Origin: a virus
Taxonomy: Duplodnaviria > Caudoviricetes
Length of the DNA: 25,279 bases
Reading direction: 5' to 3' (one strand)
IMG/VR virus record: IMGVR_UViG_3300020441_000019
Location: 1-25,279 of that record
This document shows, piece by piece, positions 14,527 through 18,312 of this stretch. The notes beneath the pieces are model-generated. The model made no database searches and was not told where the DNA came from. It saw nothing but the letters and a program-made list of their open reading frames with translations. The first letter of the stretch is position 1. Each line of letters starts with the position of its first letter. A program made the position numbers and the translations under genes.

Positions 14527-15699
14527 TCAGAATGCATCAGTGCCAGCGTCGCTGTCAGCAGCATCAGCGCCAGCAATCAGTTCCACGCAAGCAGCGGGGT
14601 TCAGATAGTCAGCACCAAGAGCCATACGGCCCAGGATCACATCGCCCTGGTAGACCACGGAGACATCACCACTGGTGACTTGCACCTGAGGTGCCATTGC
14701 TTCGACACAAGCAGCAGCTTCACGCTGGAAGATCAGACCGCAGCTGTGCTCGAATTTAGCGGCAGCACCGTAATCGTTACGGGAGCCGTAGTTAGTACCG
14801 GAGACAGCAGCGTCATCAGCCATGTCAGGACCCACGCTACCCATGTTCTGGGGCGAGGTGACACCAGGATTGTTATCACCGGCAGCTCCGAACTTAGTAC
14901 CGAAAGACTGGAAGAACGGAATGTTCATAGACTTGAAGATCTGGATGCCAGCAATCTCAACGATGCCTTGGCCAGACTGCAGAGCACTACCCTGAACGTC
15001 GCGGTTCACAAGACCGCCATCTCCAACTTTCTGGATAAGTGCGTAGTATTGACGGGGGTTGAGTACAGCCACACGGCCGTCCATGCTCACACCCTTTTCG
15101 TCAAGAGCAGCTGCAGCGTCATAGAACGCAGTGATCAGCTTGTCAGCGTCATAAGCATTAGAACCTTGATCGGAAGTACCGACACGGATCTGAGTACCGC
15201 CGGGCTCTACATAACCGCTCTTAGAGATCGGGTGTGCAGCACGAGCACCTTTGGTGATAGCGCGGAAGATCTTACGGTCATAAGTCTCTGCCAGAGCGTA
15301 ACCAATCTTGCGAGAGATTTCGCTACGCAGGTCGTAATGAGCCAGAACTTCATCGAGTTCATAGACGAATGCACTGGAGATGAGCAGGTCATCAACGGTG
15401 ATCGTCTTTTCTGCCACCGGGGGTGCGTTCTCGTCGTTACCGAGAATGCTTTGTCCGGGGGTATGGTATTCAGCTTTGGTACGGCCAGTGTAAATGAACT
15501 GAGCCGACTTAGCGTTTTGAAGGGTACGCTTCATAACCAGATCGCGAGCGATCGTGTTGTGTTGGAAACCCTTGAACATCTCACCGCTAAAGATCTGCAA
15601 GTAGAGATCGCGGTTGTTAGATGCGTTATAAGAGCCAGTATCACCCTTACGTCCAATAAACGTAGGGTTGCTATTGGCATTACTATTTTGTTGAGCCAT
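14527..15699 (-). CDS. Major capsid protein (T7 gp10-like)
   Basis: LYLQIFSGEMFKGF, RTLQNAKSAQFIYTGR, EKTITVDDLLISSAFVYELDE, YDLRSEISRKIGYALA, GADYLNPAACVEL. Confidence 0.97.
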   Translation of the reverse strand: MAQQNSNANSNPTFIGRKGDTGSYNASNNRDLYLQIFSGEMFKGFQHNTIARDLVMKRTLQNAKSAQFIYTGRTKAEYHTPGQSILGNDENAPPVAEKTITVDDLLISSAFVYELDEVLAHYDLRSEISRKIGYALAETYDRKIFRAITKGARAAHPISKSGYVEPGGTQIRVGTSDQGSNAYDADKLITAFYDAAAALDEKGVSMDGRVAVLNPRQYYALIQKVGDGGLVNRDVQGSALQSGQGIVEIAGIQIFKSMNIPFFQSFGTKFGAAGDNNPGVTSPQNMGSVGPDMADDAAVSGTNYGSRNDYGAAAKFEHSCGLIFQREAAACVEAMAPQVQVTSGDVSVVYQGDVILGRMALGADYLNPAACVELIAGADAADSDAGTDAF

Positions 15700-15723
15700 T
15701 GTTAGAGAATAAGAATACTATCC

Positions 15724-15811
15724 TCTGATCGATCAGAAATTTTTTTAACCAAATTTTGTGGTCTATCCCACCGTCTAGACGGCAAAGGGTATCCGCGTAC
15801 GGGCCAATGCC
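15724..15811 (-). promoter_or_regulatory. Structured 5' leader of the capsid gene (nested stems and two perfect palindromes)
   Basis: Minus strand GGCA-TTGGC-CCG-TACG-CGG-ATACCCTT-TGCC nested stem; palindromes CCGTCTAGACGG (15771-15782) and TCTGATCGATCAGA (15724-15737). Function is inferred from position only. Confidence 0.5.
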
Positions 15812-15814
15812 AAT

Positions 15815-15861
15815 TGGTAAGGGAGGCATCGCACCTCCCATGGCCGCGTTAACGGACTACC
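15815..15861 (-). ncRNA. Putative tRNA-like mini-structure (three-way junction with T-loop-like arm ending in ACCA)
   Basis: GGTAG-T-CCG(TTAACG)CGG-CCAT-GGGAGG(TGCGATG)CCTCCC-TTACC-A. It is not a complete tRNA. Confidence 0.4.
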
Positions 15862-15998
15862 TTTTTAGCTTTCGCTTTTCTTTGAGTTTTAGGTTTTTCT
15901 TCTACAACAGGTTCAGGTTCAGGTGCAGGTTGTACCGCTTGTGGCGTATAGCCAACGGGAAACGCAATACCGAATCCCTGATTCGTTTGTTGTGCCAT
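15849..15998 (-). CDS. Small hypothetical protein (49 aa), Pro/Glu linker and Lys-rich tail
   Basis: Hand-translated: MAQQTNQGFGIAFPVGYTPQAVQPAPEPEPVVEEKPKTQRKAKAKKVVR; starts 3 nt after the DUF4278-like stop. Confidence 0.65.
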   Translation of the reverse strand: MAQQTNQGFGIAFPVGYTPQAVQPAPEPEPVVEEKPKTQRKAKAKKVVR

Positions 15999-16001
15999 AA
16001 A

Positions 16002-16106
16002 CTAGTGATTAGATTTAAGATAAGCAACGCCGCGATACTTCAGCTTAGCCGCTTTGTTTGCAGCGACTTGCTCTTTAATGCGAGCTTGCAGTTCAACATT
16101 AGGCAT
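16002..16106 (-). CDS. DUF4278-like 'downstream peptide' (34 aa)
   Basis: Hand-translated: MPNVELQARIKEQVAANKAAKLKYRGVAYLKSNH; LKYRGVAY motif; GGAG RBS at 16117-16114; directly 3' of the riboswitch-like hairpin. Confidence 0.85.
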   Translation of the reverse strand: MPNVELQARIKEQVAANKAAKLKYRGVAYLKSNH

Positions 16107-16123
16107 GATGAATCTCCGAAGTA

Positions 16124-16342
16124 CCTAACCCCCGTTCCATGGTTAGGCGTCATGCGTCCGACTGGAATGTTTCCTCTAGCACCAACTTACAGAACTCAGT
16201 GCGTAGCACATCTAACATTTGTTGTTCAAACGGATCTCCACCTGGCCATTGGTCAAGATGGAAACATATTGATTTGTAGATCTGTTTGAGTGCTACTCCA
16301 TTGAGATCTATTTGGTAGCGAGTTTCTTCCATAGGATGAACG
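16124..16342 (-). ncRNA. Glutamine-II (Downstream-peptide) riboswitch-like aptamer, split by a nested ORF
   Basis: 5' half CGTTCATCC (16342-16334). 3' half GGACGCATGACG-CCTAACC-ATGGAACGGG-GGTTAGG (16159-16124). CGTTC is complementary to loop GAACG (pseudoknot). A DUF4278-like ORF follows, the usual context of this motif. Confidence 0.8.
16150..16332 (-). CDS. Hypothetical protein (60 aa, WPGGDP motif) nested inside the riboswitch-like element
   Basis: ORF track: MEETRYQIDLNG...LDQWPGGDPFEQQMLDVLRTEFCKLVLEETFQSDA. Looks like helix-WPGG turn-helix and fills the gap between the two aptamer halves exactly; no clear SD sequence. Confidence 0.7.
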   Translation of the reverse strand: MEETRYQIDLNGVALKQIYKSICFHLDQWPGGDPFEQQMLDVLRTEFCKLVLEETFQSDA

Positions 16343-16350
16343 TACGTTAC

Positions 16351-16533
16351 TTACACGTAGCGTGCGTATTTCTTACCGCCGCTTACATTGCCGCCAGTAG
16401 CTCCTTTTGCATAGCCCCCTGATTTAGGGCCGACATTAGCTTTCTTCGCAGCGGCTTTCTTCTTTGGCTTTTTGATGTTGGCGTGTGGCTGTGGTTTGTT
16501 CACTTTCTTTTTATCAGAGGACTTTTTAGACAT
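16351..16533 (-). CDS. Small Lys-rich hypothetical protein (60 aa)
   Basis: ORF track; TAATG coupling with the upstream gene at 16533; highly basic. Confidence 0.7.
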   Translation of the reverse strand: MSKKSSDKKKVNKPQPHANIKKPKKKAAAKKANVGPKSGGYAKGATGGNVSGGKKYARYV

Positions 16534-16904
16534 TAGAACTTATACTTAAAGCCGGTCTTTGCACCAACACCCAGACCTTCCAGTTCGAGACCTTCAGGAG
16601 TGATGGCGGACAGCTCGCCGTAGACGTTGAGCTTCTTAGTCACATCGACACCGATGCCGACTTTGCCAGAGGCAGCGCCGACTTGCTCAGCATCATCAGG
16701 GAAAGACACAGCAGGACCACCTTGGATGTACCAGCTAGCGCTGTCACCCAAAGCATTTTCATAGCCCACGTGAGTCTCTAGCAGAGCACCTTGGTAGTCC
16801 TCACCGGACCAGCCTTGGTTAGCTTCGACATTCACATACACACCTGCAGCAGCAGGCAGTGCGAAAGCAGACAGCGCGAGGGTAGAAAGAGCGATGTTTT
16901 TCAT
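16533..16904 (-). CDS. Small outer-membrane beta-barrel-like protein with signal peptide
   Basis: Sec-type signal MKNIALSTLALSAFALPAAA; alternating beta-strands (VYVNVEAN, THVGYE, WYIQGGP, GKVGIGVDV, LNVYGELS); C-terminal GFKYKF with terminal Phe (BAM beta-signal-like). Confidence 0.8.
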   Translation of the reverse strand: MKNIALSTLALSAFALPAAAGVYVNVEANQGWSGEDYQGALLETHVGYENALGDSASWYIQGGPAVSFPDDAEQVGAASGKVGIGVDVTKKLNVYGELSAITPEGLELEGLGVGAKTGFKYKF

Positions 16905-16910
16905 AATAAA

Positions 16911-17063
16911 TTAAGAGATTTTTAGTTTAGATTTCTTGTTCTTTTTACTGTTAGGAAAACCTTTCTTCATATCAGAATAAGATTTAGCACTAATAGTGGA
17001 TTTCTTTTTAGAGCGTGAAGTACCAGCCTTCTTACGCTTGTTAATGTTCTCGTAGAGGGACAT
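16911..17063 (-). CDS. Small basic hypothetical protein (50 aa)
   Basis: Hand-translated: MSLYENINKRKKAGTSRSKKKSTISAKSYSDMKKGFPNSKKNKKSKLKIS; TAATG overlap with the hli stop. Confidence 0.75.
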   Translation of the reverse strand: MSLYENINKRKKAGTSRSKKKSTISAKSYSDMKKGFPNSKKNKKSKLKIS

Positions 17064-17233
17064 TACCAAATACCAGGAATGAGTTGTCCAGTGACTGCAT
17101 ACGATCCGATTGCAGCAATCACGCCGAGCATGGCAAGCCTGCCATTGAGTCGCTCAGCTTTCTCGTTATGAGGCAGAGAGTTTTCGTCGATATACATACG
17201 TGGTTCGGTGGGCCAAATTTGGGTGTCGTTCAT
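17063..17233 (-). CDS. hli: High-light inducible protein (56 aa)
   Basis: Hand-translated: [56 protein letters not shown]; AERLNGRLAMLG chlorophyll-binding motif and TGQxIPG end; TAATG overlap with the psbA stop. Confidence 0.96.
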   Translation of the reverse strand: MNDTQIWPTEPRMYIDENSLPHNEKAERLNGRLAMLGVIAAIGSYAVTGQLIPGIW

Positions 17234-18312
17234 TAACCGATAGCGGGTGAAGTAAGTGCAATAGGTTTAGACTCAGCCGCGGCCAAGTCAAGTGGGAAGT
17301 TGTGAGCATTACGTTCATGCATAACTTCCATACCAAGACCTTGACGGTTCAGAATGTCAGCCCAAGTAGGAATGACACGATTGCTACTGTCAAGGATAGA
17401 TTGGTTAAAGTTGAATCCATTCAGGTTGAACGCCATAGTTGAGACACCAAGAGCGGTAAACCAAATGCCAACAACAGGCCAAGCGGCCAGAAAGAAGTGG
17501 AGACTCCTACTGTTGTTAAAACTAGCATACTGGAAAATAAGGCGACCAAAATAGCCGTGCGCTGCAACGATGTTGTACGTTTCTTCTTCCTGTCCAAATT
17601 TATATCCTTTGTTGTGTGATTCTATTTCTGTTGTCTCTCGTACCAACGATGAGGTAACAAGAGATCCATGCATTGCGCTGAATAGTGAGCCACCAAATAC
17701 ACCAGCAACCCCCAACATGTGAAAAGGATGCATGAGAATATTGTGTTCTGCTTGGAACACAAGCATGTAGTTGAAGGTACCTGAAATACCAAGTGGCATA
17801 CCGTCACTGAACGATCCCTGACCGAAGGGGTATACCAAAAATACGGCGGTAGCAGCCGCGACCGGTGCGGAGTATGCGACACAAATCCAAGGCCTCATTC
17901 CTAGTCGATAACTAAGTTCCCATTCGCGTCCCATGTAAGCGAAGACACCAATAAGGAAGTGGAATACAACGAGTTGGTAGGGTCCTCCGTTATAAAGCCA
18001 TTCGTCAAGTGACAATGCCTCCCACACAGGGTACAAATGAAGACCGATCGCGTTACTTGACGGCACGACCGCGCCAGAAATGATGTTGTTTCCAAAAAGC
18101 AGGGAGCCTGCAACTGGTTCTCTGATGCCATCAATATCAACAGGTGGTGCTGCAATAAATGCAATAATAAAACAAGTGGTTGCTGCCAGTAGACAAGGCA
18201 CCATGAGGACACCGAAGTGTCCCACATAGAGCCGGTTCTCAGTGCTGCTAACCCACTCTAGATAGCGGTCCCAAAGATTTTTGGGCTGCTTAAGTGCGAT
18301 AGTAGCTGCCAT
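17233..18312 (-). CDS. psbA: Photosystem II reaction centre protein D1
   Basis: Unmistakable D1 sequence ([52 protein letters not shown]); uninterrupted, no intron. Confidence 0.99.

What the first reader, a model, noticed from the sequence alone, without database searches (positions are those of the whole stretch)
16124..16342. A whole protein-coding gene nested inside the loop of a glutamine-II riboswitch-like aptamer
Seen on the minus strand: CGTTCA-TCC (16342-16334), one T, then the ATG of a 60-codon ORF whose last codons TCG-GAC-GCA-TGA supply the aptamer's GGA-CGCATGA. Then follow CCTAACC-ATGGAACGGG-GGTTAGG and the DUF4278-like peptide. As I recall the motif consensus, TCC/GGA normally closes a short hairpin; here it closes about 174 nt holding nearly the entire ORF. 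The long-range stem is reinforced by TGGAA (16331-16327, overlapping the start codon) pairing with TTCCA (16167-16163), and the pseudoknot CGTTC/GAACG remains complementary across about 200 nt. Inference: the aptamer can fold only by joining the start and stop regions of the nested gene. Glutamine binding could occlude the nested start, while a ribosome on the nested ORF would unzip the aptamer, giving a reciprocal two-gene switch. Covariance-model scans would probably miss or truncate it. I do not know of a description of this architecture but cannot check the literature here.
Basis: partly seen in the sequence, partly recalled or inferred. Interest (0 to 1): 0.9.

Follow-up and report, generated by a model that had tools for sequence, protein, structure and literature searches.

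The report
Gene nested inside phage glutamine riboswitch
In this marine cyanobacterial virus and over 200 related viral sequences, a complete small protein gene sits inside one loop of a glutamine-sensor-type RNA whose two halves stay complementary across the gene through matched base changes, so glutamine binding would likely shut off translation of that gene.

Summary
Confirmed. In a T7-like cyanopodovirus, a 60-codon phrog_628 gene fills the P1 loop (174 nt) of a glutamine-II-type aptamer, ahead of a DUF4278-like peptide. The layout recurs in 213 viral contigs and in the cultured phage S-SBP1. The long-range P1 covaries: with the 5' partner left free, 102 of 104 loci with a non-G 3' base have the Watson-Crick partner, repeatedly on the tree. 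The ORF is under purifying selection (dN/dS 0.09-0.13). Rfam scores the window 30.3 bits, under the cut-off of 33; a natural compact allele with the same halves scores 56.3. Likely mechanism: the glutamine-bound fold hides the nested AUG, and a ribosome on the ORF unzips the aptamer. Binding and regulation are untested. Folding models support nested-gene repression but show no switch at the downstream ribosome site, so 'reciprocal' rests on analogy. The TGGAA/TTCCA stem is lineage-specific, and myovirus copies of the gene lack the aptamer. Ten literature searches found no description. This scan noted similar, mostly tandem, nested glutamine riboswitches earlier on other cyanophage DNA.

The parts
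16337..16342 (-). 5' pseudoknot strand of the aptamer (C1-G2-U3-U4-C5, A6 in the numbering of PMC6698751)
   Evidence: sequence; identical to the 5' end of the compact allele L249
16334..16336 (-). P1 5' strand (TCC)
   Evidence: third base covaries with the 3' strand across relatives
16150..16332 (-). nested 60-codon ORF, phrog_628 (T4-like GC 876), predicted helical hairpin, function unknown; no Shine-Dalgarno sequence
   Evidence: E 2e-18; pLDDT 94.7; dN/dS 0.09-0.13
16327..16331 (-). 5' arm of the P1 extension, overlapping the start codon
   Evidence: pair probability 0.7-0.97 with 16163-16167; arm duplex -15.8 kcal/mol against -8.8 for synonymous recodings
16163..16167 (-). 3' arm of the P1 extension, in the last codons of the ORF
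16153..16159 (-). P1 3' strand (GGA) and linking strand (CGCA; C17-G18-C19), also the last codons Ser-Asp-Ala
   Evidence: kept outside the reading frame in 38 of 206 unique elements whose stop ends at -1 to +1 of this site
16124..16147 (-). P2 hairpin with the pseudoknot loop (GAACG at 16137-16133)
   Evidence: Rfam RF01704 30.3 bits; P2 of 5 or more pairs in 206 of 206 unique elements
16114..16117 (-). Shine-Dalgarno-like GGAG of the downstream gene
   Evidence: sequence; 164 of 205 relatives have a match of 3 or more bases
16002..16106 (-). 34-codon DUF4278-like (IF17-like) peptide gene
   Evidence: Pfam PF14105 E 0.0048, 17.7 bits, under the cut-off 25.3; [YF]RG motif in 194 of 205 downstream peptides of relatives
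16351..16533 (-). upstream 60-codon basic ORF whose stop ends 8 nt before the aptamer (context; possible translational coupling)
   Evidence: the gap from an upstream stop is 8-10 nt in 158 of 206 elements

Best explanation
This is a glutamine-II-type aptamer split by a conserved small gene that fills its P1 loop, and it likely works as a translational OFF switch on that nested gene: glutamine binding would lock the pseudoknot and the extended P1 over the nested start codon, and a ribosome on the ORF would pull the aptamer apart. Shown: the anatomy, the coding constraint on the ORF, the long-range covariation and the movement of the whole cassette between genomic sites. Predicted by folding models: burial of the AUG. 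Inferred from the compact family: glutamine binding, and switching ON of the downstream DUF4278-like peptide. In use, the phage would make the nested protein when host glutamine is low and the IF17-like peptide when it is high.
For: Every ligand-contact position named in PMC6698751 (C1, G2, G18, C19, C39, G40, G41) is present in the window, and a natural compact allele with the same two halves scores 56.3 bits. With the 5' partner free and the 3' base not G: 100 TCT/AGA, 2 TCG/CGA, 2 TCC/AGA among 104 nested loci. With both free, in metagenomes: 69 of 70 nested loci pair. Tree: 8 independent pairs on starred branches, on average 7 in the same direction and 0 opposite, median p 0.016. Named-structure counts: covariation score reached by 0 of 500 shuffles in one lineage and 8 of 500 in another. 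Arm duplexes are at least as stable as the mean synonymous recoding in 32 of 32 representatives (median -15.4 against -10.5 kcal/mol; p<0.05 in 16 of 32). With the P1 core left out, the cognate arm ranks first in 8 of 19 lineages under 60% identity and never below tenth. The AUG lies 0-9 nt behind P1 in 206 of 206 elements and none has a Shine-Dalgarno sequence. Opening the AUG region costs a median 6.2 kcal/mol free and 9.4 in the bound-like fold. A glutamine-II aptamer cut into two strands still binds glutamine (PMC6698751; that cut is in the linker, not in P1).
Against: No binding or expression data. The start is partly buried even without ligand (4.7-6.1 kcal/mol in the window), and in-line probing cited in PMC6698751 has P1 formed without glutamine, so the dynamic range could be small. 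No computed switch at the downstream ribosome site. RNAalifold did not recover the extended P1 from codon-based alignments, because its register shifts between lineages. No variant at the C5:G36 pseudoknot pair was found (0 loci), so the pseudoknot is conserved but not shown to covary. The aptamer is complete only after about 215 nt are transcribed, which gives ribosomes a head start. 40 of 80 homologous genes work without any aptamer.
Confidence: 0.55

Rival explanations
1. Passenger in a tolerant loop: the aptamer binds glutamine and controls only the downstream DUF4278-like gene, as compact copies do. The small gene landed in the variable P1 loop, the extended stem evolved only to close the loop, and the nested gene is damped constitutively, not regulated.
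For: Compact alleles with the same flanks occupy the same site in related podoviruses (L249, L106, L154, L622). P1 is the variable part of the family (6-24 nt loop in PMC2864571). The AUG is partly buried without ligand. The compact MED4 aptamer is an ON switch for a DUF4278 gene (PMC6212724).
Against: The ORF fills the loop exactly, with the AUG 0-9 nt from P1, the stop within -1 to +17 of the 3' strand and no ribosome site of its own, in 206 of 206 elements. A ribosome initiating there must open both P1 and the pseudoknot strand, so the two cannot be independent. The computed ON tendency of compact aptamers is not seen in nested ones.
Confidence: 0.25
2. Ribosome-gated sensor: the nested ORF acts mainly like a leader peptide. 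Its translation keeps the aptamer unfolded, so the downstream peptide is made only when glutamine is high and traffic on the nested ORF is low.
For: The stop codon lies in or beside the linking strand (ending at +10 in 156 of 206), so a terminating ribosome would cover P1, the linking strand and the start of P2. The cassette travels as a unit, also to a site before the endonuclease gene.
Against: The protein sequence itself is conserved (dN/dS about 0.1, invariant W, G, G, Q) and the gene exists free in myoviruses, so it is more than a leader. Glutamine codons are not clearly enriched (6.2% against 5.0%, p 0.052). A ribosome at the stop does not change computed access to the downstream site.
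Confidence: 0.1
3. The fold controls mRNA processing or stability inside a long phage transcript, not initiation: the closed P1 and the folded ORF shield or expose a nuclease site.
For: The element lies 8-10 nt behind an upstream stop, with no sigma-70-type promoter in 15500-17300. The window's ORF folds into one long rod (z -2.7).
Against: The rod is not general (median z -1.6 against synonymous recodings). No joints or common ends were seen in four RNA-library assemblies, though contigs cannot show ends.
Confidence: 0.07
4. Relic or chance: the insertion killed the aptamer, or the real aptamer is the short local hairpin that Rfam aligns, and the distal 5' half is incidental.
For: The native Rfam score is under the cut-off and uses the local hairpin.
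Against: Repeated compensatory changes in the long-range P1. The local partner triplet is present in 27 of 206 elements only, lacks G2, and has pairing probability about 0.002.
Confidence: 0.03

Closest known systems
Glutamine-II riboswitch (Downstream-peptide motif, Rfam RF01704; PMC2864571 passages and supplement passages, PMC6212724 passages, PMC6698751 parts 1-4 of 5)
   Same: Same 5' pseudoknot strand, P1, linking strand, P2 and loop, all ligand-contact bases, and a DUF4278-like gene with a GGAG site behind it.
   Different: The P1 loop is 154-182 nt and holds a whole conserved gene, against 6-24 nt in the published diagram and about 84 alignment columns in the deposited alignment. It lies between genes of a phage operon, buries a second start codon, and scores under or near the Rfam cut-off.
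Compact glutamine-II aptamers of cyanophages (103 of 120 sampled viral 3' halves; uvMED S28-C3)
   Same: Same genomic neighbourhood (psbA island before the capsid gene) and, in L249, the same flanks.
   Different: Short P1 loop with no ORF.
Fungal TPP riboswitch with long-distance pairing (PMC3597705, abstract only)
   Same: A riboswitch that relies on base pairing over hundreds of bases.
   Different: There a compact aptamer pairs with a distant splice-site element in the ligand-free state; here the aptamer itself is discontinuous and encloses a gene.
Group I introns and other structured RNAs that carry ORFs in peripheral loops (recalled, no call)
   Same: A coding sequence looped out of a conserved RNA core.
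   Different: No intron model matched, no joint was seen in RNA assemblies, and the ORF has no nuclease match.
Free-standing phrog_628 / T4-like GC 876 genes of cyanomyoviruses (S-MbCM6, Syn33, S-SSM7, S-SKS1)
   Same: Same protein family and predicted helical hairpin.
   Different: They follow gp53, uvsY or other genes and have no aptamer halves.

Membership tests
Glutamine-II riboswitch (RF01704) | 5' CGUUC strand complementary to GAACG in the P2 loop (pseudoknot) | tested here: met
   conserved, but no covarying variant found
Glutamine-II riboswitch (RF01704) | P1 helix after A6, followed by the C17-G18-C19 linking strand | tested here: met
   long-range covariation
Glutamine-II riboswitch (RF01704) | P2 helix closing the loop with C39, G40, G41 and the A33:G42 pair | tested here: met
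   P2 of 5 or more pairs in 206 of 206 elements (the loop bases were part of the search pattern, the stem was not)
Glutamine-II riboswitch (RF01704) | Short P1 loop (6-24 nt in the published consensus) | tested here: not met
   174 nt here, 154-182 nt in relatives
Glutamine-II riboswitch (RF01704) | Rfam gathering score of 33 bits | tested here: not met
   30.3 bits; natural compact allele with the same halves 56.3
Glutamine-II riboswitch (RF01704) | Lies directly before a DUF4278 (IF17-like) gene | tested here: inconclusive
   PF14105 E 0.0048 but under its cut-off; [YF]RG motif in 194 of 205 relatives
Glutamine-II riboswitch (RF01704) | Binds L-glutamine selectively | not testable with these tools
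   needs probing or calorimetry
Glutamine-II riboswitch (RF01704) | Switches the downstream gene ON | tested here: inconclusive
   folding models only: no shift in nested elements, a small shift in compact ones
Glutamine-I riboswitch (RF01739) | Three-way junction with E-loop, no pseudoknot | tested here: not met
   no RF01739 match up to E 5; the element has the pseudoknot layout
Self-splicing intron with internal ORF | Intron core and excision from RNA | tested here: not met
   no intron model; RNA-library contigs run through the element without a joint (contigs drop rare forms)
phrog_628 (T4-like GC 876) protein family | Profile match over the whole length with the W-x-G-G...E-Q motif | tested here: met

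The most novel reading that the evidence does not exclude
A natural riboswitch whose aptamer is discontinuous and encloses the gene it controls: one glutamine-binding event turns the enclosed gene off and the next gene on, while translation of the enclosed gene destroys the sensor. This gives T7-like cyanophages a reciprocal, self-latching nitrogen switch, with a large share of phage copies invisible to covariance-model scans.
Probability: 0.4. Interest if true: 0.9.

Novelty: new variant of a known kind. Interest (0 to 1): 0.78.

Why it matters
It shows that a metabolite-binding aptamer can be kept under selection while split by a whole gene, an architecture absent from the papers I could search. 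It implies that riboswitch counts from covariance models are too low: 13 of 118 real viral 3' halves in an unbiased sample were nested, a figure that leaves out the equally common A-U class. It ties an unnamed, widespread cyanophage protein to host nitrogen status, and it can be tested at once in a cultured system (S-SBP1 on Synechococcus WH7803), where the aptamer and the downstream peptide are unannotated.

Tried and rejected
Stop-codon readthrough into the DUF4278 peptide: database proteins of about 107 aa show such fusions with Trp at the stop, but the two ORFs share a frame in only 84 of 199 elements and not in the window; rejected as a general mechanism and read as a gene-caller artefact. 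Glutamine-codon attenuation: not supported. Consensus folding with RNAalifold gave the pseudoknot or an alternative long-range helix, not the extended P1. Covariation at the C5:G36 pseudoknot pair: 0 loci. Inserts of 191-221 nt: none; other sizes were covered only by the 120-locus sample (one 60-nt hairpin). Cellular copies: 2 of 52 pattern hits in GTDB genomes were real and both also appear as viral contigs of the same length in IMG/VR (L372, L389); none was cyanobacterial; a protein-based scan of that collection was not obtained. Function of the nested protein: no Pfam family under E 0.02 for any of 56 members, no PDB sequence match, no PDB fold match at E 0.001 or better, only unnamed viral clusters. 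NblA was considered; the paper places T7-like nblA behind the exonuclease gene and no NblA profile matched. The wide structural search and a homodimer prediction were not obtained, so a remote fold match stays open. The Rfam score of an artificially shortened sequence was not computed; a natural compact allele served in its place.

Full report
Context. The window is a fragment of a T7-like cyanopodovirus: ribonucleotide reductase, portal, scaffold, psbA, hli, an outer-membrane-like protein, capsid and tail tube lie on the minus strand (virus record). The finding sits in the small-gene island between psbA and the capsid gene.

Observation. The 5' half of a glutamine-II aptamer (16342-16334) is followed after one base by the ATG of a 60-codon ORF, whose last codons supply the P1 3' strand and the linking strand; P2 and the pseudoknot loop follow, then GGAG and a 34-codon peptide with a weak DUF4278 match (E 0.0048, under the Pfam cut-off). 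Rfam finds only the 3' half, at 30.3 bits against a cut-off of 33, and fills the 5' side with a local look-alike that lacks G2. That local hairpin has a computed probability near 0.002, against 0.3-0.55 for the long-range P1 and 0.7-0.97 for the helix over the start codon. A natural compact allele, L249, has the same two halves over the model's span around a 6-base loop and scores 56.3 bits, which stands in for the loop-deletion test.

Distribution. Pattern scans of IMG/VR gave the same gene family inside the loop in 67 of 68 loci (gap 160-190), 42 of 46 (gap 130-159) and 104 of 109 loci of a disjoint class with a non-G 3' base: 213 contigs. A gap of 191-221 gave 0 of 20. In metagenomes 70 of 116 sampled loci were nested, 5 compact and 41 unexplained, mostly chance matches. 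In a sample of 120 viral 3' halves taken without regard to the 5' side, 103 were compact, 12 had the 5' half 164-185 nt away, 1 had a 60-nt hairpin and 4 had no exact 5' half (2 chance matches, 1 truncated contig, 1 nested variant). Pooling all scans, 345 partly redundant loci reduce to 206 unique elements and 165 proteins; an earlier subset already spanned identities down to 19%. The carriers are podoviruses: 115 of 131 elements with enough flank have a T7-like capsid gene downstream, and some lie before the endonuclease gene, so aptamer, ORF and peptide move together. The cultured phage S-SBP1 has the layout around gp32, with an 11-pair stem over the AUG, no Rfam hit and an unannotated downstream peptide. 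Among the 80 best of 559 viral homologs of the protein, 40 have the split aptamer and 40 do not; the latter follow gp53-, uvsY- or methylase-like genes by my reading of the translations, as in four annotated myoviruses (the fourth was checked for a 3' half only). In GTDB genomes only 2 of 52 pattern hits were real, both apparently phage contigs in bins.

The ORF is a gene. It matches phrog_628 (E 2e-18). dN/dS is 0.09-0.13 in five length classes, and synonymous change is lower in the first nine codons in 5 of 5 classes and in the last nine in 4 of 5. AlphaFold gives a confident helical hairpin with no informative match. RNA-library contigs from two studies run across the ORF and both P1 strands without a joint (X2 16127-16649, X4 16137-16395); such contigs do not prove transcription or strand.

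The long-range helix is under selection. The first two viral scans required the canonical pair, so they are no test. The tests are the scans that left the 5' partner free: when the 3' base is A or C, 102 of 104 nested loci carry the Watson-Crick partner (100 U-A, 2 G-C, 2 mismatches), and in the metagenome scan 69 of 70 keep all three pairs, 10 of them through a G-U. The same U-A class first appeared in 11 loci found through the protein alone. On the protein tree (65 nested, 23 free rows, 60 columns, many forks open) the 3' base changes at least 16 times; 8 independent pairs on starred branches go the same way about 7 times and never the other way (median p 0.016). Within two gap-free lineages the named helix is kept in 95.5% and 85.7% of cells and beats every slid control on cells paired and on covariation score; that score was reached by 8 and 0 of 500 shuffles, a control that ignores relatedness. 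In 38 of 206 elements the ORF stops at or before the P1 3' strand, so that strand is not just Asp-Ala codons. Beyond the core, each lineage has its own extension: arm duplexes beat the mean synonymous recoding or equal it in 32 of 32 representatives, 16 at p<0.05, and median P1 probability is 0.59 against 0.07; cognate arms rank first in 8 of 19 distant lineages. Against this, RNAalifold did not recover the extension from codon-based alignments, and no covarying pseudoknot variant was found.

Mechanism. The crystal structure puts glutamine in the pseudoknot groove, on C1:G40, G18, C19 and C39, with P1 stacked outside, and a two-piece aptamer still binds (PMC6698751). A long P1 loop therefore need not disturb the pocket (inference). 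In all 206 elements the AUG lies 0-9 nt behind P1, with no Shine-Dalgarno sequence, so the bases that a ribosome would load on are the pseudoknot strand and P1 themselves. In the bound-like fold 36 of 39 representatives have the AUG mostly paired and the median cost of opening it rises from 6.2 to 9.4 kcal/mol (window 4.7-6.1 to 7.5); these models leave out the pseudoknot's own energy. Binding and initiation on the nested gene are thus predicted to exclude each other, and an elongating or terminating ribosome would cross P1 and the linking strand. The downstream ON switch is known for the compact MED4 aptamer (PMC6212724) and is suggested by my models for compact phage copies (54 of 82 easier, small shift) but not for nested ones (12 easier, 14 harder of 39). 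I put a glutamine-dependent OFF switch on the nested gene at 0.55, the full reciprocal switch at 0.4, a passenger gene at 0.25. The direction of origin is open: nested and free genes fall on two sides of one branch (support 89), the root is unknown and the free sample is biased towards the window's protein.

Comparison and novelty. It works like a glutamine-II riboswitch but fails two tested family features (loop length, gathering score), so I file it as a variant, not as a regular member of RF01704. Ten full-text searches found no description of a gene inside a riboswitch aptamer. What I saw: PMC6698751 parts 1-4 of 5; passages of PMC2864571 (and three supplement passages), PMC6212724, PMC7885011, PMC9004378, PMC12379486, PMC9964418 and PMC12695635; the abstract of PMC3597705. 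Ames and Breaker 2011 was not held, the supplements of PMC7885011 could not be read, those of PMC6212724 were not opened, and subscription papers are not covered. Phage glutamine riboswitches as such are in print (PMC9004378, PMC9964418). This scan's earlier notes, seen after my reading was written down, describe genes nested in tandem or interlocked glutamine riboswitches of other cyanophages; a look-up with this protein found no look-alike among them, and I did not test their claims.

Verdict. Real, widespread and well supported as a structure; regulation untested. New variant of a known kind; interest 0.78.

Noticed in passing
window 15750-15839 (minus strand): A GC hairpin followed by a conserved structured stretch just before the capsid gene; an 18-base part of it recurs exactly in 74 of 131 nested elements with long downstream flank and in S-SBP1 and uvMED S28-C3. 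No Rfam match; folding z -1.9. A phage polymerase promoter or capsid leader is my guess from recall.
   Followed up: partly
L098, L233, L417 downstream of the aptamer: The whole cassette (split aptamer, nested gene, DUF4278-like peptide) sits before endonuclease- and primase-like genes, not before the capsid gene (labels by my reading of the translations).
   Followed up: partly
L620:2711-2817 (S-SBP1, MT424636): An unannotated 35-codon DUF4278-like ORF follows gp32.
   Followed up: no
L249:625-679 and L045:253-302: The short loop of the compact allele L249 resembles the last bases of the nested ORF in the window's lineage, as if one form arose from the other by recombination between short repeats.
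   Followed up: no
proteins P0094, P0099, P0119, P0141, P0146: Database proteins of about 107 aa join the nested ORF to the DUF4278 peptide with Trp at the stop codon; probably gene-caller artefacts.
   Followed up: yes
window 16340-16367: An imperfect inverted repeat at the end of the upstream ORF overlaps the first bases of the aptamer and lowers the computed P1 probability from about 0.55 to 0.3; conservation not checked.
   Followed up: partly
PMC7885011, table of host genes: A host DUF4278 gene (SYNWH7803_RS10040) is induced early in S-SBP1 infection.
   Followed up: no
L459: Both aptamer halves with a U-A P1 pair 189 nt apart, but my script found no intact ORF between them.
   Followed up: no
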